From positions 1,242,263-1,306,262 of the forward strand of contig CAWCLO010000004.1 in NCBI GenBank assembly GCA_963796455.1: 64,000 nucleotides of DNA. Direction: 5' to 3'. Source of the DNA: Candidatus Sulfomarinibacteraceae bacterium. GTDB taxonomy: Bacteria; Acidobacteriota; Thermoanaerobaculia; Thermoanaerobaculales; Sulfomarinibacteraceae. The position numbers and the translations under genes are program-made. Shown piece by piece: positions 1-63,078 of the stretch (positions within the stretch are counted from its first letter, which is position 1; every line of letters starts with the position of its first letter). Below the pieces are notes generated by a model. That model ran no database searches. It was not told where the DNA came from and worked only from the letters and a program-made list of their open reading frames with translations.

Positions 1-1499
1 AGCTCGTCCGCGATCACATCAGTGGTCTGATCCACGAAAAATCGGCGGCCGTCGATCTCGCCCACTTCGAATCGCCCGAATATCACGACCTGCTGTATCG
101 GGCGCGATCAGATTCCCACGACCGGCCGGTCCAACTCGTGCAGAACCTGGGTGCGCTGCTGCAGCACACACTCACCCTGTCGGCGATGGCTTTGGTACTC
201 ACCCGGTTTGGTTGGTGGGTCCCCCTGATCCTGCTCGTCAGCACCCTGCCGGCGCTCGCTGTGGTCTCCGGAAACGCCATCCGCCACCACCGGTGGTCCC
301 TGAGCAGCACCGCCAACACCCGCCGAAGCTGGTATTACGACTGGCTTTTGTGTACCAGGGAAAGCGCCGCCGAAACGCGAATCTTCGGTCTCGGCCCCGG
401 TTTTTCTTCAGCCTTCCAATCGCTGCGGAAAAAACTCCGAAAGGGACGCTTCGATCTCAGCCTTGGCGAAGCTGTTGCGGAGATCGCCGCCGCGGTTTTC
501 GCGCTCTTGGTGACCGGATCTATGGTGCTGTGGATGGTCATTCGGACCGCTGCCGGAAGCGCGACCCTGGGCGGGTTGGCCATGTTCTTCCAGGCATTTT
601 CCCAGGGCCAGGCTCTCATGAGATCGCTCCTCGAGTCGGTTGGCCAGGTATGGGGAAACACCCTGTTCCTCGACAATCTTTTTCGTTTTCTCGCGATCGA
701 ATCGACAATCACCGACCCCACCAATCCCAAGTCACCCATTTTCGACTCACCGCCCTCGATTCACCTCCGGACCGTTTCATTCTCCTATCCGAATGCGGAA
801 GAAAAGGTCTTTGACGACCTGGATCTCGAGATCGAGGCAGCATCCACCGCCGCATTGCTCGGCGTCAACGGGGCCGGCAAAACAACCCTCTTCAAGTTGT
901 TGTGCCGTTTTTACGATCCCGAGGGTGGCGCCGTGGAAATAGGCGGTATCGATCTGCGCGAAATGGCCGTCGCGGACGCCCGTCGCCAGGTGAGCATTCT
1001 TTTTCAAGAGCCCGTCCACTACTCCGAAACCGTCCGCCGGAGCATCGCACTCGCCGAGCCGAACAAAGACCTCAGCGACGCTTCGATCGAGCGCGCGCTC
1101 GAGATCTCCGGCGCGCGGGAGATCGTGGACCGGATGCCGGACGGTCTCGATTCCATGCTGGGAACCTGGTTTTCCGGCGGGGCCGAACTGTCGGTCGGCG
1201 AGTGGCAGCGCCTCGCCCTTGCCCGAGCCCTCGTGCGCGAGGCTCCCGTCCTCCTGCTCGATGAACCGACCTCGGCCATGGATTCCTGGGCCGAGGCGGA
1301 GTGGAGGCAACGCCTCCGGCAAATGGCCGGCAAAAAGACGGTGCTCGTGATCACCCACCGCTTGACCACCGCCATGCACGCCGACCGTATCTTCATCATG
1401 GATCGAGGCACCATCGTCGAGTCCGGAAGCCATGCAGAGTTGGTCACCGCAGGCGGGAGATACCAGGCGGCGTGGGATGGACAGTTCGGAGAATTGTGA
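1..1499 (+). CDS. ABC exporter, fused permease + ATPase (peptide/RiPP-exporter-like), 5' end outside window
   Basis: Frame open from base 3 (LVRDHISGLIHEK...FESPEYHDLLYRA); TM helices; Walker A GVNGAGKTT; signature LSVGEWQRLALAR; Walker B LLLDEPTS; H-loop ITHR. Confidence 0.9.
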   Translation, partial: LVRDHISGLIHEKSAAVDLAHFESPEYHDLLYRARSDSHDRPVQLVQNLGALLQHTLTLSAMALVLTRFGWWVPLILLVSTLPALAVVSGNAIRHHRWSLSSTANTRRSWYYDWLLCTRESAAETRIFGLGPGFSSAFQSLRKKLRKGRFDLSLGEAVAEIAAAVFALLVTGSMVLWMVIRTAAGSATLGGLAMFFQAFSQGQALMRSLLESVGQVWGNTLFLDNLFRFLAIESTITDPTNPKSPIFDSPPSIHLRTVSFSYPNAEEKVFDDLDLEIEAASTAALLGVNGAGKTTLFKLLCRFYDPEGGAVEIGGIDLREMAVADARRQVSILFQEPVHYSETVRRSIALAEPNKDLSDASIERALEISGAREIVDRMPDGLDSMLGTWFSGGAELSVGEWQRLALARALVREAPVLLLDEPTSAMDSWAEAEWRQRLRQMAGKKTVLVITHRLTTAMHADRIFIMDRGTIVESGSHAELVTAGGRYQAAWDGQFGEL

Positions 1500-1545
1500 A
1501 CTGTGAATTCTGAATTCGGAGTTCGGAGTTCGGAGTTCGGAGTTT
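1494..1545 (+). repeat. Heptamer tandem array (TTCGGAG x4 plus degenerate units) abutting the ABC stop codon
   Basis: ttgtgaactgtgaattctgaattcggagttcggagttcggagttcggagtttt. Confidence 0.9.
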
Positions 1546-1574
1546 TCATGATCCGCTCTCCCCTCTCCGCTTCC

Positions 1575-2160
1575 GGATCGGTATCCACCGCAGCCGTTCG
1601 ATAGCGATAGCTGGCCGCTCACATTCAAGATGTCATCCTGAGCGGAGCGCCTTTGGCGCCCAGTCGAAGGATCTGCGGTTTGATGTCTTTCCGGTCCGTC
1701 TCATAGATCCTTCGACTACACCCCTGTAGGGGCTCCGCTCAGGATGACATCGGGAGGCGACACTCCCATGCAGGAGAAATCTGTACCGGGTGGTTTCCCC
1801 TCTGCCCCTCCGCCCCTCTGCTCCTCAGCGCTGTGGGGTGCGGTTCACCCTTTCACTTTTTCACCTCACCCCTTCAGGACCGGTACCCACCGCAGCCGTT
1901 CGATCAGCGATATTGGCTGGCCGCTGCATTCAAGATGTCATCCTGAGCGGAGCGCCTTGGCGCCCAGTCGAAGGATCTGCGGTTTGATGTCTTTCCGGTC
2001 CGTCTCATAGATCCTTCGACTACACCCCTGTAGGGGCTCCGCTCAGGATGACATCGGGAGGCGACACTCCCATGCAGGAGAAATCGGTACCGGGCGGTTT
2101 ACCCTCTGCTCCTCAGCGCTGTGGGGTACGGTTCTCCCTTTCACCCTTTCACCCCTTCAG
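1575..2160. repeat. Tandem duplication of a ~304-bp unit, each containing a ~123-bp TGTCATCCTGAGC...GCTCAGGATGACA palindromic element (1629-1751, 1934-2055)
   Basis: Near-identical copies of the palindrome and its flanks about 305 bp apart. Confidence 0.9.
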
Positions 2161-2570
2161 GACCGGTACCCACCGCAGCCGTTCGATAGCGATACCGATA
2201 GCGATAGCGATAGCGAGGCTGCCGAGCGATCCTCTGCCCCTCTGCCCTCGCCCCTCTGCCCCTCTGCCATGTACGGAAAAGTTTCCCTGTCGCCCCTTCT
2301 CCCCTGTCCCCTTTCTCCCTTTCTCCCTTTCTCCCTTTCCCCTTTCACCCCTTCAGGACCGGTACCCACCGCAGCCGTTCGATAGCGATACCGATAGCGA
2401 TAGCGATAGCGAGGCTGCCGAGCGGTCCTCTGCCCCTCTGCTCCTCTGCCCCTCTGCCCCTCTGCCATGTACGGAAAAGTTTCCCTGTCGCCCCTTCTCC
2501 CCTGCTCCCTTTCTCCCTTTCTCCCTTTCTCCCTTTCCCCTTTCTCCCTTTCCCCCTTCTCCCCCGCCTC
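2151..2570. repeat. Tandem duplication of a 196-bp unit built from GATAGC hexamers, CCTCTGCC octamers and TTTCTCCC octamers
   Basis: accccttcaggaccggtacccaccgcagccgttcgatagcg at 2151 and 2347. Confidence 0.9.
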
Positions 2571-2573
2571 CTG

Positions 2574-2579
2574 TATACT
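2574..2579 (+). promoter_or_regulatory. Putative -10 box (TATACT) of a leaderless promoter
   Basis: 8 nt upstream of ATG 2588; no Shine-Dalgarno. Confidence 0.55.
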
Positions 2580-2587
2580 CTCGCGCC

Positions 2588-3028
2588 ATGAATCGAGTCT
2601 CCTGGGAACGTTATTTCATGAACCTCGCGGTGCAGGCCGCGACGCGGTCAACCTGTCCCCGCAAACACGTGGGCGCCATCATCGTCCGCGACAAGACGGT
2701 TCTGTCAACCGGGTACAACGGTTCGATCCGCGGAGCTCCACACTGCACCGAAGTGGGGTGCCTCATGGACAACGACCATTGCGTCCGGACCGTCCACGCC
2801 GAAGCCAACGCCCTGGTCCAGGCGGCGTGCCATGGCATCGCTTTACGGGACGCCCAGATTTATGTCACCGCGTCGCCCTGTTTCAACTGTTTCAAGCTGA
2901 TCGTCAACTCCGGGATTCGCGTCGTTTCCTTCGGCGAGTTCTATCGCGATGAACGGGTGCTCCAATTTGCCGACGAGCTGGGCATCGAAATGAACCATCT
3001 CGGACTCGAAGATCTCAGCCCTGAGTGA
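2588..3028 (+). CDS. dCMP deaminase (ComEB/deoxycytidylate deaminase family)
   Basis: MNRVSWERYFM...RSTC...GYNG; zinc motifs HAEANA and SPCFNC; the ORF extension to 2048 is translated repeat DNA. Confidence 0.9.
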   Translation: MNRVSWERYFMNLAVQAATRSTCPRKHVGAIIVRDKTVLSTGYNGSIRGAPHCTEVGCLMDNDHCVRTVHAEANALVQAACHGIALRDAQIYVTASPCFNCFKLIVNSGIRVVSFGEFYRDERVLQFADELGIEMNHLGLEDLSPE

Positions 3029-3624: not shown

Positions 3625-3862
3625 GGAGAAACCGCAGATAGCGCAGATCGACGCAGATAGAAATGAATCGGTGGACGATTCAAAAAGACCGAGTTCTCCG
3701 AAACATCGCCTCATGTTGCTCCTAGCGGAGCTGTCCTCAAAGGCTGTTTCGATCCTTCAAATGACCGGTCCGATATCTGCGCTCATCTGCGTGATCTGCG
3801 GTTTCTCCGGAGATGAGTATCCCGGCCGAAATCCGAATTCCGAATTCCCGAATCCGAAATCC
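3625..3862. mobile_element. MITE-like element: inverted 9-mer arrays (CGCAGATNN x3 / NNATCTGCG x3) + linker + heptamer array
   Basis: ggagaaaccgcagatagcgcagatcgacgcagat ... atctgcgctcatctgcgtgatctgcggtttctcc; an inverted, internally shorter copy is at 33379-33572. Confidence 0.65.
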
Positions 3863-5239
3863 TCAGCCGCTGCTCTCTCCCTCCACCGTTGTCCCGTCGG
3901 AGAGAGTCAGATGCCATTGCAGCCGGACCCGGCTTCGACCAGACGGCACCCGGATGGAGCCGCTCACGACTTCTTCTCCAGGCGCCAGATAGACCTCGAA
4001 GAAGCGAGCGGCGTTGACTCGATTGAGGTTGCCCTGTTCCCATTTTGAATGGTTGAAGGTGCCTAGATCGATCCGCTCGAACGAACCCTTGCTGTCCGCC
4101 ACGATCCAACCTTCATCGACCGAAATCTGGATCCAATTGCCGAAGTTTGCAACTGCGGATGCAAAGGGGCTCGAGTTGGTCAATCGGATCCGCATGGTCC
4201 GACCGTTGCGATCCAAACGCACCTGAATATCAGGTTCGGGGCCGAATCCTTCGAGATAGTGAAGAAGGGTCTCCTGCGGCAAACCCAGCCCGAGATCATC
4301 CGGTGGCAGCACGACCAGGTCCCAACCCGCAACCTCGGGCAAAACGAGGCGATGGATCTCCTGCAACGACTGGTTCAATTTCGCGGCGTCCATCCATCGA
4401 ACCGCGACGGAGTCCCCCTTCTGCCAACGCTTGCCGCTCCACGTCGCCGGTTTTTCAAAGTTGAAGGACCGATCGAGTGGCGAGGTCGTGGAGACGGTCG
4501 TCACCTGCCCCTCCGTCAAGGGATCCAGGTCTTCGAGCGCCGTATTCAATTCGGGAAGCGTCCTTGGTCCGATAACCACCGCCGGCCGTACCCGCACATC
4601 CGAGTCGGCGATCGGCGCCAGCTTTTCTGCCAATGCAAGCGGGCCGAGCTCCCGGACACCACGAAGATCGGCTTCGTCGGTTCCAAATGAGGGCACGATG
4701 CACACCCGCGCAGCCTCGGCCACAAGACGCCCCTGCTCGGTCTGCAGTTGTTCGAAACTCAGAATCGGAACAACCGCAACCCCTGAGGCCTCTGTCAGGG
4801 AGACGATGAAGCCGTCGATTCCTTCAACCAGGTGCGGAAAATCCAGAATGATCTCTGCCGGGATAAAGCTCCCGAATTCCGCCGCCAAACCCCTCCACAC
4901 CGCCTCGGCATCAGCCGAGTCGAGATCGGGTCGAACGCCTTCGACCTCGAGCGCTACGGCAAGAGGGATCGCACCCTCCACCGCCACTGCCGGGAGCAGC
5001 CGGAGCACCGGGGCGCGACCTCCGAGGTCGATGCTCCCGCGGCGGATGACGACCTGGTCGACACCAGCGTTCTTCAGCTTCGCCGCCGTGTCGCCGTCAA
5101 GCCCGGTGGAACCGAGCCACATCACCAGACGCCGCGGCGACGGCGCGACCTCCTGAAATGTCGGATGGTCTCCTCCGCAACCGAACAGACCGGTGAGCAA
5201 AAAAACCGCGGTGATGGATTTCAGGAAATGCACCCTCAT
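3863..5239 (-). CDS. Hypothetical lipoprotein
   Basis: Start MRVHFLKSITAVFLLTGLFGC (lipobox); ATGA overlap with the kinase stop codon. Confidence 0.75.
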   Translation of the reverse strand: MRVHFLKSITAVFLLTGLFGCGGDHPTFQEVAPSPRRLVMWLGSTGLDGDTAAKLKNAGVDQVVIRRGSIDLGGRAPVLRLLPAVAVEGAIPLAVALEVEGVRPDLDSADAEAVWRGLAAEFGSFIPAEIILDFPHLVEGIDGFIVSLTEASGVAVVPILSFEQLQTEQGRLVAEAARVCIVPSFGTDEADLRGVRELGPLALAEKLAPIADSDVRVRPAVVIGPRTLPELNTALEDLDPLTEGQVTTVSTTSPLDRSFNFEKPATWSGKRWQKGDSVAVRWMDAAKLNQSLQEIHRLVLPEVAGWDLVVLPPDDLGLGLPQETLLHYLEGFGPEPDIQVRLDRNGRTMRIRLTNSSPFASAVANFGNWIQISVDEGWIVADSKGSFERIDLGTFNHSKWEQGNLNRVNAARFFEVYLAPGEEVVSGSIRVPSGRSRVRLQWHLTLSDGTTVEGESSG

Positions 5240-8961: not shown

Positions 8962-9051
8962 ATTCCTAATTCCGAAATCCTAATTCCGAAATCCGAAATC
9001 CGAATTCCGAAATCCTAATTCCGAACTCCTGAACTCCGAACTCCGAACTCA
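8962..9051 (-). repeat. Heptamer array (about 12 units TTCGGAG/TTCGGAA/TTCGGAT/TTAGGAW on the minus strand) directly after the aminopeptidase stop
   Basis: attcctaattccgaaatcctaattccgaaatccgaaatccg...aactccgaactccgaactc. Confidence 0.9.
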
Positions 9052-10432: not shown

Positions 10433-10525
10433 GAGGCTTGGGACCTGAGGCGTGGGGCTCGGGCTTACGAAGTCCTGGATGAATCTTAAGAACCTTCAAG
10501 TCCCAAGCCACAAGCCCCAAGCCTC
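10433..10525. repeat. Inverted degenerate heptamer arrays (GGCTTGG-type / CCAAGCC-type) between divergent genes
   Basis: gaggcttgggacctgaggcgtggggctcgggctt ... caagtcccaagccacaagccccaagcctc. Confidence 0.65.
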
Positions 10526-13402: not shown

Positions 13403-14961
13403 ATGTTCGGTGACAGCTCTCGGATGAGGCAACGGGCGGTGGGCTTCGCCTTGGCAACAGTTGTTGCGCTCTGTCTTTCTTGCGCCGCCCCGGAGGAACC
13501 GGGCAGACCCAACATCCTATTCATCGCCGTAGACGATCTCCGCCCCGAATTCGGCTGCTATGGCGCCGAGTCCATGGTGAGCCCGAATATCGACCGGCTC
13601 GCCGCCGAGCGTCTGATCTTCACCGGGCCTATTGCCAACAGCCGTCTGCAACCCATCCCGCGCCAGCCTGATGACCGGCTTACGACCCGACACCCTCCGA
13701 GTCTGGGACTTAAAACCGATATCCGCGAACCCAACCCCGAGCGTTGTCACCCTCCCAGCATTTCAAACACCACGGCTACTACCCGTGGGCATCGGCAAGA
13801 TCTACCACAACAACAACCCCGATCATGCCACGTGGAGCGAAGAGAAGCTGTACATCGACGGCTATCCCTTCGACCCCGACGCGGTGTACCGGGGTGAAGA
13901 GGGCATCCGCGGTCAGGAAGAAAAAGGCGCGACTGATCGAAGCCGGCAAAGAGGCGCATCGATCGATTCGGCAAATGGTACTTGAAATCCGAGGCCACCG
14001 AAAACGTCGACATGCCCGACAACGGCGTACTATGACGGTGCGCAGACCGACGTGGCGATCGAGAAGCTCGCCGAACTCCAGCCGAAGGCAAGCCGTTCTT
14101 CTTCGCCGTTGGTTATTATCGGCCCCATCTGCCATTCAACGCCCCACAAAAATACTGGGATCTTTACGACCGCGAGCGAGATCCCGTTGGCAGCGAATCC
14201 CGATCTTCCCGACGGTCTGCCTTCAATGGCGATCAACAATCTGCGTGAGATTCGCGGATACACCGGTTTTCGGGACCTCGAACACCCCACGGTCGGCAGC
14301 CTCGACGAGGAACGCTCCCGCCTGCTTCGACACGGCTATTTCGCCTCGGTGAGCTATGTGGATGCCCAGGTCGGGCAGGCTCCTGAACGCCCTCGAAGAG
14401 CTCGGTCTGGATGAGAACACCATCGTCATACTTTGGGGCGATCACGGGTGGAAGCTCGGCGAGCACAACAGTTGGTGCAAGATGACGAATTTGGAGATCG
14501 ACGCCCGGGTACCGCTCATTCTCCGTGTGCCCGACATGACAAACGTTGGTGCGATCACCAAAGGTTTGGTGGAGTTTGTCGATGTCTACCCCACTCTCTG
14601 CGATCTCACCGGCGTTCCGGTCCCGCCGGACATTGAGGGAACGAGCTTCAAACCGCTTATCGACGATCCCACCCGAGCCTGGAAAAAAGCAGCATTCACG
14701 CAGTTTCTTCGTGAGGGAGTCTGGATCGATCCGGACGGCGTGGAATACATGGGCTACTCGGTCCGCACTGATCGATTCCGTTACACCGAGTGGCTGGACT
14801 GGGAAACTGGAGAACTGAAGGCTACCGAACTCTATGATCACGAGACCGATCCATCGGAGACCGCGAATGTCGCCGGCGATACAGACTACGCCGGTTCGTT
14901 GCAGCAGATGGCTGAGATTCTCGACGCGGGTTGGACCGCAGCCGCTCCCGAAGTCCGGTAG
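13403..14961 (+). pseudogene. Formylglycine-dependent sulfatase (iduronate-2-sulfatase-like) broken by many frameshifts (pseudogene or assembly errors)
   Basis: Fragments in alternating frames: [72 protein letters not shown]. Confidence 0.85.
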
Positions 14962-16749: not shown

Positions 16750-17180
<431 letters not shown>

Positions 17181-21039: not shown

Positions 21040-21195
21040 TGTGGTGCGGCCGTCCCGGCCTCACGTCTCGAGGTTGCCCCGACAAAGTGCGGGCGAGACG
21101 CCCGCACCACAAAAGCCATCTCAAACTCGTGTGGGGCCGGTGTTTCGCGAGGAGGCCGGGTGAGCGTCATCCCTAATTCCTAATTCCTAATTCTT
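21040..21195. repeat. GTGG-type REP doublet (21040-21111) plus TTAGGAA heptamer array (21170-21195) at the DUF2891 stop
   Basis: tgtggtgcggccgtcccggcctcac ... gtgcgggcgagacgcccgcaccac; ccctaattcctaattcctaattct. Confidence 0.7.
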
Positions 21196-27278: not shown

Positions 27279-27665
27279 AATCGGAGTTCGGAGTTCGGAG
27301 TTTGGAATTCGGAATTCCGCCCACCCTGAAGCACCGCCATCCGGAGTGACCAATGATTCTTTGGAGGCGGGTCCTTCAGGGCCCGCCACCAATCGCGACA
27401 GGTCCCTTCAACCGCATCGGGCGTTGACACCATCCGTTGGCGCAACCTAAAGGATGCGCCTACATTTTGCTTTGCAGACCCCAATTGTCATCCTGAGTGA
27501 GGCCGTCGGACGGCCTAAGACTCGTGACAAAGAGAGCTCTCCCCTGCCCCTCTGCGTCAGTCGCTATCGCTATCGGGATCGCTATCACTATCGAATGGTT
27601 GGCCGGTCTCCCTTTCTCCCCTTTCTCCCTTTCTCCCTTTCTCCCTTTCTCCCTTTCCCTCTGCC
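27279..27665. repeat. Composite spacer: TTCGGAG array, two REP-like hairpins (27361-27392, 27436-27463), TGTCATCCTGAG arm, TCGCTA hexamers, TTTCTCCC array
   Basis: Direct reading of the sequence. Confidence 0.8.
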
Positions 27666-29778: not shown

Positions 29779-30359
29779 AAACCAGGCGGCCCGCCGATAA
29801 TCCATTTGCCAGCCACCGGGTCGAGGCCCTCCCCTATCGCAACGCGGACGCCTCGGTATCCGGGCTTGTGGACCGGATCAGGGAGATGGGCGGTCGAGCA
29901 GCCATCGTCGGGCCTGAAGGCAGCGGCAAAACCACCCTGCTTGAAGAGCTCGCCTCGTGCTGCGAAGACCGTGCCGTCATGATTCGTCTGCCCGGGAGTT
30001 GTGCCCACCCGTGGCGCACTGCGCGGCAGCAGGTCCCCGATCACCTGGATTCGAATCGGTCGGTATTCGTCGACGGTTCCGAACAGCTCAGAGTGATCGG
30101 TTGGCTGAGACTTCGAGTGGCGACACGCAGGGCCGGCTCGTTGGTGGTCACCCTCCACCGGCCCGGCCGCCTCCCGACACTGATCGAGTGCCGCACCGAT
30201 CCGGATCTCTTGCGCAAGCTCGTCGCCGAGCTGGCACCGGAAGATGCCGCCGAACTCGACCCGATGCTCGATGCACTCTTCCATCGCCACGCGGGAGATA
30301 TCAGGCTGTGCCTGCGGGAGTTGTATGACGTGTATGCAGGACGCAAGGAAAAGGTTTGA
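29775..30359 (+). CDS. Small P-loop ATPase
   Basis: Walker A GPEGSGKTT; Walker B-like VFVDGSEQ; ATGA overlap. Confidence 0.75.
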   Translation: MKTRRPADNPFASHRVEALPYRNADASVSGLVDRIREMGGRAAIVGPEGSGKTTLLEELASCCEDRAVMIRLPGSCAHPWRTARQQVPDHLDSNRSVFVDGSEQLRVIGWLRLRVATRRAGSLVVTLHRPGRLPTLIECRTDPDLLRKLVAELAPEDAAELDPMLDALFHRHAGDIRLCLRELYDVYAGRKEKV

Positions 30360-30455
30360 GGTTTGAGTTTTGAGGTTTGAGTTTCATCGCAGTGTTTTCG
30401 AGACGATCGAGGCCTCGCAACCGCCAACTCAAAACTCAGAACTCAAAACTCTTTC
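30352..30455. repeat. Inverted heptamer arrays (TTTGAGG/TTTGAGT vs AACTCAA) between convergent genes
   Basis: aggtttgaggtttgagttttgaggtttgagtttc ... aactcaaaactcagaactcaaaactc. Confidence 0.8.
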
Positions 30456-32778: not shown

Positions 32779-33378
32779 ATGAAGAAAATACTGATCATCG
32801 CTGCGCTCGTCATCGCAGTCGGTTTCGGTACCGCCGCCGCCGCAGGAACCTACGCCATCGACAGCACCCATTCGACCGTCGGATTCAAGGTCCGGCATCT
32901 GGTATCGAAGGTCAGCGGTGAGTTCACAGAATTCGACGCCACCATCACCGCCGACTTCGACAACCTCGATGCGAGCAATGTGGAGTTCGTGATCCAGACC
33001 GCCAGCATCGACACCGCCAACGAAAAACGCGACGGCCATCTGCGTTCACCCGATTTCTTCGATGCCGAGAACCACCCCCAGATCACCTTCAAGAGCAAGA
33101 GGATCACAAAAGTCGACAAGGACACCTTTTCGGTCGTCGGTGATCTGACCATGCGCGGCGTCAGCAAGGAGATCACCCTCAGGGTCGACTATCTCGGTGA
33201 GATGGAGGCCTTCGGCGAAACCCGTGCGGGCTACGAACTGTCCACCACCATCAATCGGAAGGATTTCGGCGTGTCATGGAACAGAGCCCTCGATGCCGGC
33301 GGATTCGTTCTCGGCGAAGATGTCGATGTTTCAATCACCCTCGCCGCCGTCAAGGACAAGGACGAAGAATCAGAGTAG
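32779..33378 (+). CDS. yceI: YceI-family polyisoprenoid-binding periplasmic protein
   Basis: Signal peptide; IDSTHSTVGF.VRH; RDGHLRSPDFFD; INRKDFG; GGAGG RBS. Confidence 0.92.
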   Translation: MKKILIIAALVIAVGFGTAAAAGTYAIDSTHSTVGFKVRHLVSKVSGEFTEFDATITADFDNLDASNVEFVIQTASIDTANEKRDGHLRSPDFFDAENHPQITFKSKRITKVDKDTFSVVGDLTMRGVSKEITLRVDYLGEMEAFGETRAGYELSTTINRKDFGVSWNRALDAGGFVLGEDVDVSITLAAVKDKDEESE

Positions 33379-33572
33379 TTCGGATTTCGGATTTCGGATT
33401 TCGGATTTCGGATTTCGGAGTTCGGAGTTCGGAGTTCGGAGTTCGGAGTTCGGCCAGGATACTCGCCCAGGAGAAACCGCAGATCACGCAGATGAACGCT
33501 GATATCGGATCGGTCTTTTGAGTCATCCTCTTTTTCATTTCTATCTGCGTCGATCTGCGCTATCTGCGGTTT
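33379..33572. mobile_element. Heptamer array (TTCGGAT x5, TTCGGAG x5) + linker + 9-mer inverted-repeat MITE-like unit; inverted relative of 3625-3862
   Basis: Reverse complement matches 3629-3691 and 3770-3845, including the linker gagtatccyggccgaa. Confidence 0.7.
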
Positions 33573-34998: not shown

Positions 34999-35056
34999 AT
35001 GGGGATCGCAGTCGAACGTTCCAGAATCAATGGGCCGAACGTTGCGATGGAAATTC

Positions 35057-35659
35057 CTAATTCCGAATTCCGAATTCCGAATTCTCTTTGAGCGCTTCGC
35101 TCAAAGACTCTGGCGTATTGCAGTTGGCAACCACACCCGGATCGTCGACTTCGAGATCGACCGCGACGATTTCCCGCAACACCTCTCGCATGGTCGGACC
35201 ATTCAGATCGCCGGCCACAATCGAGGCCACGATCGATCGATCGATGACGATCGGATGCCCATGTTTTCCCCTGAAAGAGGCGATCACGGCTCCACCCTCG
35301 GCGGCGCCGAGCTTGCGAATCGTTTCGGCTTGAACAAGCGGGTGATCGACCGGCAGCACGGCCAGACGGTCCCAGTCCTCGCTCTGGACGAGAAAGCTCA
35401 ACCCGACCCGAATCGACGCAAACATGTCGAGGCCGTGTTCGGGGAGCGGCAGCGCCTCGAGACCGTCGATAAAAGGGCCCTGTGATTCCGGCGGCAGAGT
35501 CGCAGCCACACGTACGGCTCCAGCCCCTTGAAGAGCGTCCGAACATGCCTGCAGAAAACTCCGCCCATCCGGCAACCCAGCCCAAGCCTTTGGCCCACCA
35601 AAGCGCTTGCCCTCGCCCCCGGCAAGGATCAAACCCGCAAGCTGAATCGAAGGATTCAT
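35057..35659 (-). CDS. MobA/MocA-like molybdopterin nucleotidyltransferase
   Basis: LILAGGEGKRFGGPK; VDHP; GKHGHP; NCNTPE; near a Mo-hydroxylase operon; last codons come from a TTCGGAA array. Confidence 0.82.
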   Translation of the reverse strand: MNPSIQLAGLILAGGEGKRFGGPKAWAGLPDGRSFLQACSDALQGAGAVRVAATLPPESQGPFIDGLEALPLPEHGLDMFASIRVGLSFLVQSEDWDRLAVLPVDHPLVQAETIRKLGAAEGGAVIASFRGKHGHPIVIDRSIVASIVAGDLNGPTMREVLREIVAVDLEVDDPGVVANCNTPESLSEALKENSEFGIRN

Positions 35660-35671
35660 GGAGATACCGAA

Positions 35672-35732
35672 AGCAGAGGAGCAGAGGGGCCTACAGGCGG
35701 AGGAGCAGAGGGGCAGAGGAGCAGAGGAGCAC
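35672..35732 (+). repeat. GCAGAGGR octamer array (left arm around the four-helix-bundle gene)
   Basis: gcagaggagcagaggggc...ggagcagaggggcagaggagcagaggagcac. Confidence 0.85.
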
Positions 35733-35771
35733 AGGCTTCCGTCAGGATCTCGACATCCGGGTGGTCCAGCT

Positions 35772-36221
35772 TCACTTGTCGGCCCGATTTTTGATGGGAA
35801 GAATCCAAGGATCCGGATATGAGATCATTTTTACCAACATCTTCAGCACCTTCTCATACTCCAGTTTGAGCCGGGTTGCAGATTCCTTGTCGAGATATCC
35901 GCACTCCTCTGCAAATTGCACCCACGTTTGCGTCTCAGCCGCCTCAGCCTCTGCGTGATTTAACGAGTTCTGGAACGCTGCTCGGTACCGCCTCTTTCTC
36001 CAAGCTTCAGCAATATTTGCACACACCGATCGTGATGACCTCCGAATCTGGTCGGTTAACGAGTATCGCTCCTCTCTCGGAAACGATTTCGACAAAACAA
36101 AAACCTCGTTCGCTAACCGGAAGGCCAACGCATAGGTTTCCAGCTGATCATGCCTCGCGATACCGGCCTTCATAGGGTCCGAAACCAGATTTACGTCATT
36201 GTTTTCAGGGTATTCGTCCAA
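35772..36221 (-). CDS. Four-helix-bundle protein (23S rRNA IVP / bAvd-like family); start may be ATG 36173
   Basis: FPREERYSLTDQIRRSSRSVCANIAEAWRKRRY...AEAEAAETQTW; visibly more AT-rich than its neighbours. Confidence 0.92.
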   Translation of the reverse strand: MDEYPENNDVNLVSDPMKAGIARHDQLETYALAFRLANEVFVLSKSFPREERYSLTDQIRRSSRSVCANIAEAWRKRRYRAAFQNSLNHAEAEAAETQTWVQFAEECGYLDKESATRLKLEYEKVLKMLVKMISYPDPWILPIKNRADK

Positions 36222-36228
36222 AGCTCAT

Positions 36229-36262
36229 CTCCTCTGCTCCTCTGCCCCTCCGCTCCTCCGCC
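36229..36262 (+). repeat. YCCTCYGC octamer array (right arm, inverted relative to 35672-35732)
   Basis: ctcctctgctcctctgcccctccgctcctccgcc. Confidence 0.85.
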
Positions 36263-36281
36263 AGCCGAGGGTTCGTACCAT

Positions 36282-37049: not shown

Positions 37050-37139
37050 GCCGACCAGAGTACAATCACCACATGAATTCTCTCGATTGAAAATGCAAGA
37101 GCAATCCCGACCCCTTTTCTGGGTCGAACGGGAGGCACC

Positions 37140-37763: not shown

Positions 37764-40066
37764 TGGAAAACGAGACTCCCTATTGGATTGACGGACCGGT
37801 CCCGGAAACCCCCGAGGGCTCGAGTGAATACCCGGAGCCCTGGAAAAAAACAACCATCGTCGGCACCAGGGTTCCCAGGGTCGACGGTTACGAACGGGTC
37901 AGCGGCAGCGCCGTCTACCCCCACGATGTATCGCTCCCTGAGATGCTTCACGGGGCGATTCTCCGTTGTCCGCACGCCCACGCCAGGGTCGTGAGTGTAG
38001 ATACCAGCAAAGCGGAGAAAATGCCCGGCGTTCGTGCAGTGCTCAGCGGCGCCTCCCCCGGCGCTGATATCCCCTGGTATGAACGGAGGGGCAAATCCTA
38101 TAGCAAGCTCTTCGATTCTCATTGTCGGCACGAGGGTGAAGAGGTGGCAGTGGTTGCAGCCGAGACGCTGCCCCAGGCAGTCGATGCCATCCGCGCCATC
38201 GAGGTCCGGTACGAAGTCCTGCCCTTTGTCATCGATGACCACAAAGCGCTCGAACCCTCGGCGCCCGCCGTTCATGAGGACGGAAATTTGGTCGGCGAGC
38301 CTTCGGTCCGCGAACGCGGCGATATCACCTCCGGGTTCGCTGCTGCGGAGGTGATCGTCGAGCGCACCTACAGCACCTCCTGCCAGATCCACGCGCCAAT
38401 GGAGCCCCACGGCTCGGTGGCCAGGTGGGAAGGTTCCAGGCTCACGGTCTGGGACAGCACCCAGGGCGTATACAGCGTGCAACAGAGCATGGCTCAGGCT
38501 CTGGGCCTGCCGCTCGCGAATGTGCGGGTCATCGGCCACTACATGGGCGGCGGCTTCGGCGCCAAGCTCGAAACCGGAAAATATACGGTCTACGCCGCGC
38601 TGATGGCCAAGTCCACGGGGCGACCTGTCAAGATCTTCTTGCCGCGCGAAGACTGCATGCGGGTCACGGGTAACCGTCCGGGAAACACCATGACCGTGAA
38701 GATCGGAGCCAAAAAGAACGGCGAGCTGACCGCCATCGACTACAAAAGCCTCGGCTCCAACGGCGCCTACCCCTACAACGCCGGCACCAGCACCATGGCT
38801 GCCTATCTCTACACTTGTCCGAACCTGCGCACCGAAGACGTGTCGGTCTACACCAACGCCGGCAAGTCCAGACCGATGCGCGGACCCGGCTTCCCGCAAT
38901 GCGCGTGGGCACTCGAACAAGCGATGGACGAATTGGCCCAAAAACTCGAAATCGGCCCCATCGATCTCCGACTCCGCAATCTCTCCGATGTCGCGCAGAT
39001 CCGCGACGGAATGCCCTACACCTCGAACGAGCTCGTCGCCTGTCTCGAAAAAGGCGCCGAGGCCTTTGATTGGAAGTCCGGCAGTTCCACCTCGGGAGAC
39101 GAAAAACACCTGCGCCGGGGAGTCGGCATGGCAGCGTGTTTCTGGGGCTACGCCGGAGGCCCGCCGTCAACTGTGATCGTCAAGTTTCACTCCGACGGCA
39201 GCGTCAACTTGAACATGGGTGCATCCGACATCGGGACCGGTACCAAGACCTGGGCCGCCATGATCGTGGCCGAGGAACTCGGGGTCCCGGTTGAACAAAT
39301 TCAGATCGAGCACGCCGATACGGCGACCACCCAGTACGCCACTTCTTCCGGTGGCAGCAAGACGGTTCCTTCGGATTCACCCGCTGTTCGCGCGGCCGCC
39401 TATGCGGTAAAAAAACAGCTCATCGAGATGGCGGCTGAACAACTCGAAACTGAAATCTCAGGGCTTGAAATGCGCGGCCGCGAGATTATCAGTCGGGCGG
39501 ATTCTGAACAGAAGATCGATGTCACAGCGCTCAACAAACTGAACCGGCAGGGTCTCGTGGTCGGCACCGGCTATCGCGAACCCAACCCGGAGGACAAGAT
39601 CACATGGCCCTTCGGTGCCCAGTTCTGCGAGGTGGAGGTCAATACCCGCACTGGAGAAGTGAGGCTTCTCCGTTTCCTCGGTGCGCACGATTCGGGCCGG
39701 GTCCTCAACCGCTTGACCTATGACAACCAGCTCTTTGGCGGTATCACGATGGGGGTCGGTCTCGGAATGACCGAAGAACGGGTACTTGACCGCCAGACAG
39801 GCAAGATGGCCAACGCCAACCTCCACGACTACAAGGTTCCGACGATCAAAGATGTCGCGCTCGAGCACATCTGTCTGCCGATCGACCACCCCGACAACGA
39901 GTTCAATACAACCGGCACGAAGGGACTCGGCGAACCGGCGACGATCCCTACCGCAGCGGCCTATGCAAACGCCATCAACGATGCCCTCGGTCTGAGAATC
40001 GCAGAGGGACCGATCACCCCAACGAGAATCCTGAATGCCCTCCAGACGCAGGGAAAGGGGGCCTGA
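37763..40066 (+). CDS. Xanthine dehydrogenase/aldehyde oxidoreductase molybdopterin-binding subunit (PaoC/YagR-like)
   Basis: HAPMEPH, GGGFGAK, MRGPG, DIGTGT, KGLGEP; TGATG overlap. Confidence 0.92.
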   Translation: MENETPYWIDGPVPETPEGSSEYPEPWKKTTIVGTRVPRVDGYERVSGSAVYPHDVSLPEMLHGAILRCPHAHARVVSVDTSKAEKMPGVRAVLSGASPGADIPWYERRGKSYSKLFDSHCRHEGEEVAVVAAETLPQAVDAIRAIEVRYEVLPFVIDDHKALEPSAPAVHEDGNLVGEPSVRERGDITSGFAAAEVIVERTYSTSCQIHAPMEPHGSVARWEGSRLTVWDSTQGVYSVQQSMAQALGLPLANVRVIGHYMGGGFGAKLETGKYTVYAALMAKSTGRPVKIFLPREDCMRVTGNRPGNTMTVKIGAKKNGELTAIDYKSLGSNGAYPYNAGTSTMAAYLYTCPNLRTEDVSVYTNAGKSRPMRGPGFPQCAWALEQAMDELAQKLEIGPIDLRLRNLSDVAQIRDGMPYTSNELVACLEKGAEAFDWKSGSSTSGDEKHLRRGVGMAACFWGYAGGPPSTVIVKFHSDGSVNLNMGASDIGTGTKTWAAMIVAEELGVPVEQIQIEHADTATTQYATSSGGSKTVPSDSPAVRAAAYAVKKQLIEMAAEQLETEISGLEMRGREIISRADSEQKIDVTALNKLNRQGLVVGTGYREPNPEDKITWPFGAQFCEVEVNTRTGEVRLLRFLGAHDSGRVLNRLTYDNQLFGGITMGVGLGMTEERVLDRQTGKMANANLHDYKVPTIKDVALEHICLPIDHPDNEFNTTGTKGLGEPATIPTAAAYANAINDALGLRIAEGPITPTRILNALQTQGKGA

Positions 40067-41044: not shown

Positions 41045-41740
41045 TTAAGTTCGGAGTTCGGAATCCCGGACCCGCAGATCCTTCGACTTCGCGCCCGGGG
41101 CGCTTCGCTCAGGATGACATCTTGAAGGACAGTGCCGCTCCCGATCCCGTTCCCGAAGGGGAGAATAAGCCCTGACATCGCAGAGGAGCATGGGGCGGAG
41201 GGGGCGCTTGCTTTCGATAAGCAACTGTCGGTTCATTTCTGTAGTCCGACTCGTGATTCGTACGCGTACCCGAAGAGAGAACTACACATCGCGGAAATCA
41301 CCGGTAGGTCAATGTTGCCTCACGATGTCATCCTGAACGCCAGATGCCCAATGGGCGCGCGTGGCGCCTCCCGATGTCATCCTGAGCGGAGCCCGCCCTG
41401 GGGCGCAGTCGAAGGATCTATGAGATGGACCAAAGCCCCCGTGTGCCGCAGATCCTTCGACTGCGCGCCGAAGGCGCTTCGCTCAGGATGACATCTTGAA
41501 CGACAGTTCCGATCCCGCTCCCGTTCCCGTGCGGGAGGATCAGCCTCAACATCGCAGAGGGGCATGGGTTGGAAGGGCAGGGGGCGTTCGCTATCGCTAT
41601 CGGGATCGCTATCGATATCGAACGGCTGCAACGGATACAGACATCGAAAGACAGGAAGGGCCTGACCCGTTGGTGGTTCGCGATAGGGGTCGTGTCTCTC
41701 CGTCTCCCTTTCTCCCCTGCTCCCTTTCTCCCTTTCTGGG
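41045..41740. repeat. Composite spacer: TTCGGAG units, palindrome half (41076-41121), TCCCGN hexamers, full palindrome (41373-41495), TCGCTA hexamers, TTTCTCCC array
   Basis: Direct reading of the sequence. Confidence 0.8.
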
Positions 41741-46172: not shown

Positions 46173-46210
46173 ATGGCTCCATCCTACCTCGGACCGGCCT
46201 TCCTGCCGTC

Positions 46211-46590
46211 GCAGAGGAGCAAGGGAGAAAGGGAGAAACGGGGAAAGGGAGAACCACTCTTCACGAATATCCCCTGTATGTAGCTGCCGCCCCAAGATGT
46301 CATCCTGAGCGCAGCCCGCCCTGGGGCGGAGTCGAAGGATCTATGAGATGGACCAAAGCCCCCGTGTCCGCAGATCCTTCGACTCGGCCGTCGGACGGCC
46401 TCCCTCAGGATGACATCTTGAACGATCGTGCCGCTCCCGAAACGAAGAAACCAGCCTTAACGGCTGGTCGTTCGTGATAAGGGCCGAGTCTCCCTTTCTC
46501 CCTTTCTCCCTTTCTCCCTTTCCTCTTCTCCCTTTCTCCCTTCTCCCTCTCTCCCTTTCTCCTCTCCCTTTCTCCCTTTCTCCTCTGCCC
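46211..46590. repeat. Composite spacer: GGGAGAAA array | palindrome (46296-46417) | TTTCTCCC array (about 12 units)
   Basis: Left and right arrays are inverted complements. Confidence 0.85.
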
Positions 46591-46653
46591 GAAACGGGAA
46601 CGAAGTCCCCGATTCCTGTGTTACCGTTTTCTGTCAGCAATTGGGGGGAAGAA

Positions 46654-49143: not shown

Positions 49144-49833
49144 TAGATCCTTCGACTCCGCCCCAGGGCGGGCTCCGCTCAGGATGACATCGGGAAGCGA
49201 CATTCGCGCCCTTTGGACATCCGGGTCACCGGTTCCGCTTCGAATGACATCAAGAGGCGCCATTCGCGCCCATTAGCCGCTCGAGACCATCGCATCCGAG
49301 GGTCAGGAGTGCCACTTCAATATGTCATCCTGAGCGCAGCAAACGCCTCGATGTTTCCCAAGAACCCGCGGCCCTTCATGATGTCATCCTGAGCGGAGCC
49401 GCCCTGGGGCGGAGTCGAAGGATCTATCGCGCGCTCGGGAGTTACCCAAGGCCGCAGATCTTGCGGCTTCGCGCCGTAGACGCCCCGTTGTCTCCCAAGA
49501 ACCCGCGGCCCTTCATGATGTCATCCTGAGCGGAGCCGCTCTGGGCGGAGTCGAAGGATCTATCGCGCGCTCGGGAGTTACCCAAGGCCACAGATCCTGC
49601 GACTTCGCGCCGTAGACGCCTCGATGTTTCCCAAGAACCCGCGGCCCTTCATGATGTCATCCTGAGCGGAGCCGCTCTGGGCGGAGTCGAAGGATCTATC
49701 GCGCGCTCGGGAGTTACCCAAGGCCGCAGATCTTGCGGCTTCGCGCCGTAGACGCCCCGTTGTCTCCCAAGAACCCGCGGCCCTTCATGATGTCATCCTG
49801 AGCGGAGCCGCTCTGGGCGGAGTCGAAGGATCT
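49144..49833. repeat. Palindrome arm with 60-bp tail (49144-49290), then a tandem array of ~136-bp units, each starting with a TGTCATCCTGAGC...GTCGAAGGATCT arm
   Basis: Arms at 49382, 49519, 49655, 49791; inter-arm sequences nearly identical, alternating A/B variants. Confidence 0.9.
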
Positions 49834-49865
49834 ATGGCATGCGCGGAAACGTCTCGAAACCGGTG

Positions 49866-52889: not shown

Positions 52890-53122
52890 CGGATCTGTGT
52901 TCCACATCCAAGCCGCGACCCAGTTACCCCATGGCCGCCCATGCCGCCCCACGATGTCACCCCGGGGAGCAACCCGCGACCCGGATGCCCGATGGGCGCG
53001 AATGCCGCCCCCAGATGTCATCCTGACCCGATCAAGCGACCCCCGATATCGCCTATGCACTGACAGCCATTAATGATGTCATCCTGAGCGGAGCCCGCCC
53101 TGGGGCGCAGTCGAAGGATCTA
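52890..53122. repeat. 61-bp-stepped GATGTCAYCC units ending in an intact palindrome arm that supplies the pyrD stop codon
   Basis: Units at 52953, 53014, 53075; TAG = reverse complement of cta 53120-53122 in gaaggatcta. Confidence 0.75.
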
Positions 53123-54165
53123 TGAGATGGAAGACAAAGCCTTGACGATCCGCTTCACCAAACCCGGCCCCTCATAGACGAGGCCCGTATATACCTGCAC
53201 CAGCGTCGCACCGGCATCGATCTTGGCCTGCGCATCCTCCGGGCCCATGATGCCGCCGACGCCGACAATCGGGATCGCGCCACCCGTGTGCTCATGAATA
53301 CGCGCAATCATCCGGGTGCTCATGTCCGTCAGGGCGGCACCCGAAAGCCCACCCTCCTCCTCGGCCTTTGGATGATCGATCGTGTCTCGGCTGATGGTGG
53401 TGTTGGTGGCAATGATGCCGTCGAGACCGCTCGCCACGATCACGTCCACCGCGGTCAACAACTGCTCATCCGTCAGATCGGGCGCCAGCTTGACCAGCAC
53501 CGGAACCGGGTGACTGAGGGCCTCCGCGGACAAGTCACGCCGCTCTGCGATCCTCCCCAACAATTCACCGAGAAATCCAGGTTCCTGCAGCTTGCGCAAT
53601 CCAGGCGTGTTGGGCGACGAGATATTGACCGCCAGGTAGTCGCCCAGAGGCGCGAAGAGATCCACCAAGTCGCTCGTAGTCGACGGCGGCATCTTCGAGC
53701 GGCGTCTGCTTCTGTTTACCGATATTGACGCCGATGATCGGCCCACCGGGTGGCCGATTGGAGAGCCTCTTGGCCACATACATCGCACCCTCTCCCGGAA
53801 AACCCATCCGGTTGATGACCGAACGCTCCTCAACCAAACGAAACACCCGCGGTTTGGGGTTGCCCGGTTGCGGGTTCGGGGTCACCGTCCCGACCTCGAT
53901 GTGACCGAAACCGAGACATCCAAGACCGCGCCAGCCGTCGGCGTCCTTGTCATAGCCGGCGGCCAGACCGACCCGATTCGGAAACTTTGAGCCCAAAAAC
54001 CTCAACGGGCTCGGCATCGGGATGCGAGTACATCGCAGCCACAGCCGCGCGCAACCCGGGGATCCGCCCCACCCGGGCGATCGCCTTCAGAGACAAACCG
54101 TGGGCGGTCTCAGGATCGAGTTGAAAAAGGAGCGACCGCGAAATCGGGTAAAGAAGTCCAGCCAT
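53120..54165 (-). CDS. pyrD: Dihydroorotate dehydrogenase (quinone, class 2); two apparent frameshifts (~53985, ~53670)
   Basis: DPETAH; NRVGLAAGYDKD; GNPKPRVFRL; INRMGF; NISSPNTPGLR; KLAPDL; TNTT; GGLSG; GVGGI spread over three frames. Confidence 0.88.
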
Positions 54166-59710: not shown

Positions 59711-60050
59711 GAAAGGGGGAAAGGGAGAAAGGGGGCCACGCGCCCTCACATGATCCGAAATACTCAGGCTCTCATTCTGGAGCCAGTCATCCTGGGCAGT
59801 GCAAGCGACCCCGTTGCCTCCTGGGCCCTGCAACCCTTAATGATGTCATCCTGAGCGGAGCCCGCCCTCGGGCGTAGTCGAAAGGTATCTATGGGATGAA
59901 CCGAAGAAACCGAAGACGCAGATCCTTCGACTGCGCGCCGAAGGCGCTTCGCTCAGGATGACATATTGAAAAGACCACCAACTTTTTCAAGGCACTCCGT
60001 ATCGTGCCCACCCAAACTAACCCGAGGTCCTCCCGAGCCGATCAAGGGAC
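59711..60050. repeat. GGGAGAAA array, stepped unit and full palindromic element (59842-59964); first of two ~250-bp direct repeats
   Basis: Colinear with 62578-62830. Confidence 0.8.
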
Positions 60051-62370: not shown

Positions 62371-62544
62371 GATGCCTGCCTTCACAAACACTATAGGTCC
62401 GCCGAAATCCTCTGGCAACGCACCCCCGAGAAATTGAGACTGCGAAAGCGTCACCTGCCATCCTGCACGATCACGAATCCGCTCCAACAACCCACACCGT
62501 CCGGCAACGCCCTTCCCAACCTCTTCCGGAAGTTCACACAACCC

Positions 62545-63078
62545 CGGTGCCGCCTGGGTGCTCGGACCTCTAAATGATCAAGCGACCTCGATGTCACCTG
62601 GGTGCTCGCAACCCTTGTTGATGTCATCCTGAGCGAGCCCGTCCTCGGGCGCAGTCGAAGGATCTATGGGACGAACCGAAGAATCCGAAAACGCAGATCC
62701 TTCGAATCGGCCGCCGGACGGCCTCCCTCAGGATGACATATTGAAAAACCTCCAACGTTTTCAACGCAATCCGTGTCGTGCCCACCCAAACCTATCCCGA
62801 CGTCACCCCGAGCCGATCAAGCGACCCCGATGCCGCCTGTACGCTGACAGCCCTCAATGATGTCCCCCCGGACCGATCAAGCGACCTCGACGCCGCCTGT
62901 GCTCTGACAGCCTTTAATGATGTCATCCTGAGCGGAGCCCGCCCTGGGGCGTAGTCGAAGGATCTATGGCATGGGCGCCACCGGCGCCCCTTCTCCCTTT
63001 CCTCCCTCTCTCCCCTGCTCCCCTGCCAACGGTTGACGTGCCGAAAATCCAAAATTCGAAATCCGAAATCCGAAATCT
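62545..63078. repeat. Composite spacer: palindrome (62620-62739), 60-bp-stepped units (62799, 62859, 62919) ending in an arm, C-rich octamers, AATCCGA heptamers
   Basis: Direct reading of the sequence. Confidence 0.85.

What the first reader, a model, noticed from the sequence alone, without database searches (positions are those of the whole stretch)
1494..63078. Polarised, telomere-like 7-8-nt tandem arrays at the edges of intergenic spacers
Seen: more than 20 short arrays from several motif families (TTCGGAD, TTAGGAA, TTTGAGK, GGCTTGG, GCAGAGGR, GGGAGAAA) follow one rule. On the + strand the G-rich form sits at the left edge of a spacer (1500, 10433, 16750, 27279, 30352, 33379, 35672, 41045, 46211, 59711). 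The C-rich form sits at the right edge (2480-2570, 3826, 8962, 10497, 17030-17180, 21170, 27608, 30427, 35052, 36229, 41695, 46490, 62988-63078). This holds for tandem, convergent and divergent gene pairs, so it is not set by transcription direction. The G-rich strand always runs 5'->3' away from the adjacent gene, often starting within 0-5 nt of a stop codon. Ordinary slippage microsatellites would be randomly oriented. Inference, three options: (i) inverted termini of a family of non-autonomous elements; (ii) templated G-rich repeat addition to both 3' ends of a break, which is the polarity telomerase produces; (iii) functional boundaries, where any transcript across the spacer can fold into a long stem or meets a C-rich Rho-loading tract before the next gene.
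Basis: partly seen in the sequence, partly recalled or inferred. Interest (0 to 1): 0.85.

Follow-up and report, generated by a model that had tools for sequence, protein, structure and literature searches.

The report
Repeat arms of vanished gene cassettes
Hundreds of gaps between this bacterium's genes are bracketed by short repeat runs that face each other; they match the arms around small four-helix-bundle and predicted-nuclease genes and are likely relics of mobile cassettes, which would explain a long-unexplained excess of 7-base repeats in bacterial genomes.

Summary
G-rich-left/C-rich-right arrays number 1041 versus 417, and same-family neighbours face inward 114 versus 4. The rule is per family; some inner 6-nt families are C-rich first.

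The arrays are best read as inverted arms of small gene cassettes and their gene-less relics:
- A four-helix-bundle (FHB, TIGR02436) gene sits between facing arrays at 35772-36221.
- The orthologous gap holds GxxExxY cassettes or lone arrays of other families in congeners.
- Arms flank 58/75 FHB relatives across phyla and 22/22 GxxExxY genes.
- Arrays occur in 14/18 FHB-rich and 0/17 FHB-free genome samples.

Edge position largely follows from insertion into 30-50-nt native spacers. Telomerase-like addition is unsupported: no RT was found. An RNA-stem function shows no G·U bias. How the cassettes move is inferred, not shown.

The polarity was published for single heptamers in Xanthomonas and Nostoc (PMC4692102). 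This scan noted FHB-heptamer cassettes before on other DNA (190 notes).

The parts
1491..1544 (+). 7-nt array, inward-pointing, overlapping the stop codon at 1497-1499
1797..2563 (-). stack of right-hand 8-nt arrays of two families with inner 6-nt arrays, partly tandem-duplicated; ends just upstream of a -10-like box of gene 2588
3633..3800 (.). facing 9-10-nt arrays of the type that flanks GxxExxY genes, no gene inside (likely relic)
3826..3862 (-). 7-nt array abutting the stop of gene 3863-5239
8962..9047 (-). 7-nt array, 11 copies, 7 nt from the stop of the Xaa-Pro aminopeptidase gene
10433..10523 (.). facing degenerate 7-nt arrays forming a gene-less hairpin in a divergent spacer
16750..16839 (+). 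left 8-nt array followed by a 7-nt array
17034..17179 (-). right 8-nt arrays of two families; a REP-like palindrome lies between these and the left arrays
21172..21193 (-). 7-nt array 2 nt from a stop codon
24034..24074 (-). 8-nt array that breaks the side rule (C-rich form nearer the left gene)
27281..27317 (+). 7-nt array 2 nt after a stop codon
27561..27657 (-). inner 6-nt array and right 8-nt array
30352..30451 (.). facing 7-nt arrays filling a 97-nt convergent spacer
33377..33453 (+). 7-nt array, 11 copies, starting in the stop codon
33470..33568 (.). gene-less facing arrays of GxxExxY type, sharing its interior with 3633-3800
35052..35084 (-). 7-nt array overlapping the 3' end of the NTP-transferase gene
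35672..35735 (+). downstream 8-nt arm of the FHB cassette
35772..36221 (-). four-helix-bundle gene (TIGR02436, E 1.4e-30; relative of PDB 2gsc and 2rld), co-directional with its neighbours
36229..36262 (-). upstream 8-nt arm of the FHB cassette, about 20 nt behind the upstream stop
41048..41062 (+). short 7-nt array after a stop
41135..41620 (.). inner 6-nt arrays (C-rich first) among REP-like palindromes
41703..41737 (-). right 8-nt array 15 nt from a stop
46216..46583 (.). facing 8-nt arrays around a REP-like palindrome; the spacer is empty (57-78 nt) in 3 of 6 congeners
59711..59735 (+). left 8-nt array
62988..63077 (-). right 8-nt and 7-nt arrays ending upstream of a -10-like box

Best explanation
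The arrays match the inverted arms that flank small four-helix-bundle (FHB) and GxxExxY predicted-nuclease genes, and they are likely the arms and gene-less relics of mobile cassettes that likely replace one another in the same short gaps between genes. Shown: (1) FHB and GxxExxY genes carry facing arrays whose period goes with the protein subfamily; (2) the same spacer in congeners holds a different cassette, lone arms of another family, or nothing; (3) array-bearing spacers are native spacers plus roughly 300-400 nt (about 30-50 nt native in tandem and convergent pairs), so the arms end up against the stop codon on one side and the -10 box on the other; (4) REP-like palindromes lie between arms, and a cassette with terminal repeats and 9-bp target duplications sits in or beside arrays. 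Inferred: the cassette gene is lost while the arms stay and change copy number by slippage; later insertions between the arms keep them at the edges; movement is DNA-level, homing-like replacement in which the cassette protein recognises its arms and host recombination does the joining (about 0.35 for this step); the C-poor arm comes first because the reverse order would put a Rho-loading tract right behind a stop codon (about 0.4).
For: FHB gene between facing 8-nt arrays in the window, and further FHB and GxxExxY genes with their own arrays in G000. Orthologous spacer 35660-36281, 10 of 12 loci resolvable: intact GxxExxY cassette 4, decayed 2, lone array of another family 4. Spacer 46173-46617: empty in 3 of 6, facing heptamers of another family in 3 of 6. 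Inverted arms in 58 of 75 relatives of the window FHB across many phyla (5 of 80 dropped for short flanks), 56 of 58 G>C on the upstream arm; 16 of 30 best phylum hits by a strict unit test, 0 direct, control 1 of 150; 22 of 22 GxxExxY genes, control 5 of 200. Period 8:7 is 46:8 in the window subfamily and 5:11 in the other set, p 8e-5. 7-8-nt arrays in 14 of 18 samples from genomes with at least 5 FHB genes and 0 of 17 from genomes with none (5 of 40 samples under 10 kb were dropped, none with an array). Spacer medians with and without arrays: 354/51, 365/52, 400/29, 610/212 nt; a -10-like hexamer follows 165 of 222 start-side arrays versus 86 in shuffles. 9-bp duplications in 20 of 67 tip pairs (36 with at most one mismatch; other lengths at most 1 exact), and 39 of 67 pairs touch an array.
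Against: No insertion of a plain (TIR-less) FHB or GxxExxY cassette was caught with exact junctions, and no enzyme activity is shown; FHB has no known catalytic role (recalled). G000 has only about 4 plain FHB and 3 GxxExxY cassettes against 639 array-bearing spacers. The edge-hugging heptamer families share almost no inner flank sequence (25 of 171, 2 of 50, 2 of 46), so their cassette origin cannot be traced copy by copy. 335 of 639 spacers are one-sided. The genome-level link compares related genomes, samples 20 kb each, and GC content and lineage differ. It shows co-occurrence, not direction: arrays could be host-made landing pads that the genes exploit, as shown for the TIR cassette.
Confidence: 0.62

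Rival explanations
1. Host-maintained functional boundaries: the arrays are kept because, in RNA, they form stems (RNase III processing, transcript stabilisation) or tune Rho termination; the small genes merely colonise them.
For: Post-stop arrays are G>C in 232 of 266 and YC-poor in 234 of 266 on the sense strand. Convergent spacers are occupied twice as often (190 of 409 versus about 21% elsewhere). Rho and RNase III are encoded. Facing arrays fold into long stems (no shuffle control). The same spacers carry arrays across congeners about 75% identical.
Against: No G·U over A·C excess in arms: 87:105, 22:22, 42:31 (per locus 15:4, p 0.02, the one hint in favour) and 115:97 in co-directional spacers. 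Half the spacers are one-sided. Families are swapped and kin have empty alleles. Rehm et al. found no regulatory role (PMC4692102, discussion).
Confidence: 0.17
2. Telomerase-like templated addition of G-rich units to both 3' ends of a break.
For: The polarity fits. Near-identical cassette copies in congener G008 differ in tip-array length and sequence at both ends. Bacterial RTs can make tandem-repeat DNA (DRT10, PMC12632851, abstract).
Against: RVT_1 was not found in G000 (90.5% complete) nor in 14 of 25 genus genomes, several of them array-rich. There are more than 15 unit families with mixed variants, and no outer-to-inner order in the main heptamer group. Arrays of three or more units of the same family were already present at 12 of 21 orthologous sites that lack the FHB cassette (one holds a gene-less derivative with the same tips, read by eye). 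Some families are C-rich first. DRT10 synthesis is protein-primed.
Confidence: 0.05
3. Ordinary slippage microsatellites, with orientation filtered afterwards by selection.
For: Copy numbers vary in unit steps; arrays are almost all intergenic; slippage surely acts on them once they exist.
Against: Same-family facing pairs are 114:4; a few shared families recur hundreds of times; 0 of 17 FHB-free samples have any 7-8-nt array; arms mirror each other around genes.
Confidence: 0.06
4. Arrays are accumulated target-site duplications left by repeated insertion and excision of the multicopy TIR cassette.
For: The cassette duplicates its target and sits in arrays; filled sites in G008 have one to three more units than empty orthologues.
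Against: Duplications are direct and 9 bp in G000, which cannot give inverted non-palindromic arms or a 7-nt period. It could only lengthen the palindromic 8-nt family of G008.
Confidence: 0.05

Closest known systems
G-rich heptamer repeats of Xanthomonas and Nostoc (Rehm et al. 2015, PMC4692102; passages and discussion read)
   Same: Intergenic, about 4 units, G-rich strand on the sense strand just after stops and on the antisense strand before starts, and 70-75 convergent inverted pairs in Xanthomonas. This is the same polarity rule.
   Different: One family per genome, read as G-quadruplex formers, with no link to a gene or to mobility. Here there are more than 15 families, most without G3 tracts, tied to FHB/GxxExxY cassettes.
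Long heptameric simple sequence repeats of bacteria (Mrazek 2007 as summarised in PMC4679880; Beggiatoaceae heptamers, PMC4679880, passages read)
   Same: 7-nt units dominate (202 of 267 post-stop arrays), intergenic, oriented to neighbouring ORFs, origin unexplained.
   Different: Those papers propose polymerase slippage or RNA-binding regulation; facing pairs and cassette genes do not appear in the passages read.
ORF-bearing 23S rRNA intervening sequences (S23p; PMC4990558, passages read)
   Same: An FHB-family ORF inside terminal inverted repeats, heptamer tandem repeats of variable number upstream of the ORF, sporadic horizontal spread, mobility mechanism unknown.
   Different: Here the unit lies between protein-coding genes, not in rRNA, mostly without the gene, and RNase III excision is untested.
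MITEs / mobile insertion cassettes moved by DDE transposases (recalled)
   Same: The roughly 65-copy FHB cassette of G000 has terminal inverted repeats and 9-bp target duplications.
   Different: Its arrays lie outside the terminal repeats and are its targets; the plain cassettes have tandem arms instead of unique TIRs.
REP/REPIN-RAYT systems (recalled; PMC3116915 seen as a search listing only)
   Same: Intergenic, paired, inverted and multicopy; a REP-like palindrome with 90 near-full copies nests between the arms.
   Different: The arms are tandem arrays, not palindromic REP units, and the associated genes are not HUH transposases.

Membership tests
Heptameric long SSRs / Xanthomonas-type polarised repeats | 5-11-nt units, mostly 7, about 4 copies, intergenic | tested here: met
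   202 of 267 have period 7, median 4.6 copies; 189 of 1710 lie in called genes
Heptameric long SSRs / Xanthomonas-type polarised repeats | G-rich strand on sense after stops, antisense before starts | tested here: met
   232 of 266 after stops; 1041:417 overall
Heptameric long SSRs / Xanthomonas-type polarised repeats | units carry G-tracts able to form G-quadruplexes | tested here: not met
   most family consensus units lack three consecutive G; no biophysics done
ORF-bearing 23S rRNA intervening sequence | FHB/S23p-family ORF within terminal inverted repeats | tested here: met
ORF-bearing 23S rRNA intervening sequence | located inside an rRNA gene | tested here: not met
   flanked by protein-coding genes; no Rfam match in the window
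ORF-bearing 23S rRNA intervening sequence | excised from the transcript by RNase III | not testable with these tools
   RNase III gene present; no RNA run available
MITE / DDE-moved cassette | unique terminal inverted repeats with fixed-length target duplication | tested here: inconclusive
   met for the multicopy FHB cassette (9 bp, 20 of 67 exact); the arrays lie outside its tips, and duplications at the outer ends of the arrays were not tested
MITE / DDE-moved cassette | cognate transposase with the same ends | not tested
   not searched
Telomerase / DRT10-type repeat addition | a reverse transcriptase in the genome | tested here: not met
   0 RVT_1 matches in G000, 90.5% complete; 11 of 25 in the genus
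Telomerase / DRT10-type repeat addition | one templated unit, added in order at a 3' end | tested here: not met
   more than 15 families; no variant order in the main heptamer group
Telomerase / DRT10-type repeat addition | template non-coding RNA | not tested
   no candidate RT locus to examine
REP/REPIN-RAYT | palindromic REP units flanking a RAYT gene | tested here: inconclusive
   6 Y1_Tnp matches, two with inverted flanks; their flanks were not compared with the arrays

The most novel reading that the evidence does not exclude
FHB (IVP/S23p) and GxxExxY proteins are the engines of an undescribed, transposase-free class of mobile cassette. Each protein subfamily reads its own 6-10-nt tandem arms, and the cassettes home into stop/-10 junctions by replacing older arms. 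Their relics are the source of the polarised heptamer and octamer repeats reported across bacteria.
Probability: 0.3. Interest if true: 0.85.

Novelty: new variant of a known kind. Interest (0 to 1): 0.58.

Why it matters
The excess of 7-nt tandem repeats in many bacterial genomes, and their orientation to genes, are published but unexplained (PMC4692102, PMC4679880). So are the function of the S23p/FHB protein and how intervening sequences move (PMC4990558). This genome ties these questions together. Array-bearing spacers make up 337 kb, about 7% of the genome, the arm period tracks the protein subfamily, and arrays appear only in samples from genomes that carry the gene. That makes the origin of these repeats directly testable with a 120-residue protein and a 30-nt oligonucleotide. 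The arrays also act as landing pads for other elements, so they shape where intergenic DNA grows.

Tried and rejected
Reads: no RNA holder listed; 17 of 19 listed runs hold at most 0.20 of the words, all as contigs. Laying four runs on 33600-37800 gave short pieces, and no contig bridged the FHB cassette, so neither artefact nor empty alleles could be judged from reads. One array stayed unchecked against reads.

RT search: 0 in G000. GIY-YIG: one match in a 668-aa frame, so not a stand-alone gene.

Replication strand bias: rejected. Invasion of coding 3' ends: the repeat register extends only into the stop codon (0.43-0.45 versus 0.26-0.28; 27 of 261 exact), although single cases in congeners do supply a new stop. 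Telomere-like gradient: absent in the main heptamer group; the two families that show order (46:6, 25:0) do so at the inner end, next to an element tip. RNA-stem selection by G·U bias: not found.

Other cargo between arms: a scan of short ORFs gave 34 further candidates, mostly repeat translations, host genes, two RAYT-like ORFs and an integron-like cluster; none was scanned against Pfam. Co-directionality of cassettes (stop at the upstream arm in 39 of 52, 13 of 19 and 15 of 22) has no chance control and is only suggestive. A protein alignment failed on a stop codon; no structure was predicted because solved relatives exist.

Literature: ten searches found no paper linking FHB or GxxExxY genes to inverted tandem arms outside rRNA. 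The library lacks most subscription papers, and supplements were not read. The organism's name comes from no call of mine. The tally 117 of 201 includes unpublished G060; no other claim rests on it.
Full report
1. Observation. The window is G000:C4:1242263-1306262. TRF finds arrays at or next to the listed places; the one at 10433 is degenerate and was read by eye and by folding. With my own gene calls, 33 of 39 intergenic arrays in the window lie on the expected side. Genome-wide, arrays of period 5-10 with at least 3 copies follow the G-left/C-right rule 1041 times and break it 417 times, in all four gene-pair contexts. With families derived from the data, most are 80-100% polarised, and same-family neighbours within 300 nt face inward 114 times, outward 4 times (180:22 within 1500 nt). 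GC skew plays no part. The rule belongs to each family rather than to G content: three 6-nt families are C-rich first, and these sit deep inside spacers.

2. Position. 639 spacers carry arrays: 134 with the same family on both sides, 170 with different families, 335 on one side only. Stop-side arrays lie a median 20 nt from the gene (142 of 520 within 5 nt); start-side arrays lie a median 75 nt away (0 of 411 within 5 nt). On the start side a -10-like hexamer follows in 165 of 222 cases versus 86 in shuffles, with a peak 8-11 nt from the array. Spacers without arrays have medians of 29-52 nt (212 nt for divergent pairs); spacers with arrays have medians of 354-610 nt. The simplest reading is that the insert is the spacer. 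It went into a gap of a few dozen bases, so its ends touch the stop codon and the promoter core, and no targeting of stops is needed. The repeat register reaches into the stop codon but no further.

3. What lies between facing arrays. Mostly no gene (median gap 176 nt); in the window the gaps hold short loops or REP-like palindromes. At 35772-36221, however, a four-helix-bundle gene (TIGR02436; weak match to DGR Avd; relatives 2gsc and 2rld) lies between facing 8-nt arrays. Three more plain FHB genes and three GxxExxY (PF13366) genes in G000 have their own facing arrays. The gene-less elements at 3633-3800 and 33470-33568 use the array type seen around a GxxExxY gene.

4. Orthologous spacers. 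In 12 congener loci of about 75% identity the same gaps recur with the same polarity but other contents. The FHB gap holds an intact GxxExxY cassette in 4 of 10 resolvable loci, a decayed one in 2, and a lone post-stop array of another family in 4. The gap 46173-46617 is 57-78 nt and empty in 3 of 6 loci and holds facing heptamers in the other 3. Pure promoter spacers such as 37050-37139 stay free of arrays in all 12.

5. Breadth. Among relatives of the window protein from many phyla, 58 of 75 have inverted arms, 56 of those 58 are G>C on the upstream arm, and the period is 8 in 46. The 30 best TIGR02436 hits in the phylum give 16 strict inverted pairs, 11 of period 7, against 1 of 150 control genes; the period difference has p 8e-5. 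All 22 GxxExxY genes examined in the genus have inverted arms, against 5 of 200 controls. In 10-20-kb samples, 14 of 18 genomes with at least 5 FHB genes show 7-8-nt arrays and 0 of 17 FHB-free genomes do (five shorter samples dropped; kin are not independent).

6. Arrays as landing pads. G000 has 73 TIGR02436 matches, about 65-69 of them one family in a cassette with unique terminal repeats. At first this looked like the source of the arrays. In G008, near-identical copies have different arrays at each tip. At 21 orthologous sites of five such copies, the same array family is already there in 12 (one with a gene-less derivative of the cassette), another family in 3, and two units or fewer in 6 (read by eye). 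So this cassette parasitises arrays; it does not make them.

7. Mechanism. Shown: arms flank FHB and GxxExxY genes; arm period tracks the subfamily; contents of a spacer are replaced between species; secondary elements lie in and between arms. Inferred: loss of the gene leaves arms that slip in copy number; movement is a DNA-level, homing-like replacement that uses the arms, with the predicted PD-(D/E)XK nuclease GxxExxY and the FHB oligomer (pentameric and Avd-like, recalled) as the likely readers. The arms show no G·U excess on the transcribed strand, which fits a strand-symmetric DNA role better than a selected RNA stem. Polarity may be filtered by Rho: 234 of 266 post-stop arrays are poorer in YC on the sense strand, the C-first families are inner layers, and rho is present. 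Against this account: no exact junction of a plain cassette was caught, the edge-hugging heptamer families share little inner flank, and co-occurrence does not give direction.

8. Rivals. Telomerase-like addition lacks an RT in G000 and in 14 of 25 genus genomes, lacks a single unit and lacks a gradient; DRT10 makes protein-primed repeats (PMC12632851, abstract only). Plain slippage cannot give inward pairs. A host boundary function remains possible at about 0.17.

9. Prior knowledge. Rehm et al. (PMC4692102; passages and discussion read) report the same polarity and 70-75 convergent pairs for one heptamer in Xanthomonas, function unknown. MacGregor (PMC4679880; passages) reports oriented heptamers in Beggiatoaceae. 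Warrier et al. (PMC4990558; passages) note variable heptamer repeats before the S23p ORF of a 23S intervening sequence. PMC8700078 and 10.1101/2021.01.26.428298 (passages) added nothing. Ten searches found no paper on array-armed FHB or GxxExxY cassettes between protein-coding genes. The scan's own notes hold 190 findings with such words in at least 186 genomes, and one on polarised spacers in a Bacteroidota genome; these are not independent support.

10. Verdict. The pattern is real and far beyond chance. The polarity itself is known; the link to swappable FHB and GxxExxY cassettes, with subfamily-specific period and a presence/absence match, is a new variant that makes an old question testable. 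Interest 0.58.

Noticed in passing
G000, about 65-69 loci outside the window (e.g. L005-L030); congeners L084-L103: Multicopy cassette carrying a 117-aa FHB gene. 57 intact copies compared: median 90% identity, none identical, dN/dS 0.13. A long leader hairpin covers the ribosome site; 9-bp target duplications; a recent burst of near-identical copies in G008. Already reported by other notes of this scan.
   Followed up: partly
G000:C4:853000-872100 (outside the window): A run of small, low-GC, same-strand ORFs each with inverted flanks, like an integron cassette array.
   Followed up: no
window 49343-49835; 1628-1752 and many spacers: A REP-like palindrome with 90 near-full copies genome-wide, here also as a 136-nt tandem repeat. 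No stand-alone GIY-YIG gene was found.
   Followed up: partly
window 13403-14961: Sulfatase gene in pieces; two ORFs match different parts of arylsulfatase models. Pseudogene or assembly error.
   Followed up: no
window 53120-54017: Dihydroorotate dehydrogenase appears split over two overlapping frames; the 181-aa call matches only the C-terminal half.
   Followed up: no
window 2570-2590, 63090-63120 and genome-wide: Many genes have a -10-like box only a few bases before the start codon, suggesting leaderless transcripts; arrays often end where a -35 box would be.
   Followed up: partly
L111, L117, L124, L128, L089: In congeners an array sometimes replaces the last codons of a gene and supplies its stop codon.
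   Followed up: partly
G006, several contigs: Eleven RVT_1 matches, several identical in score, probably multicopy group II introns.
   Followed up: no
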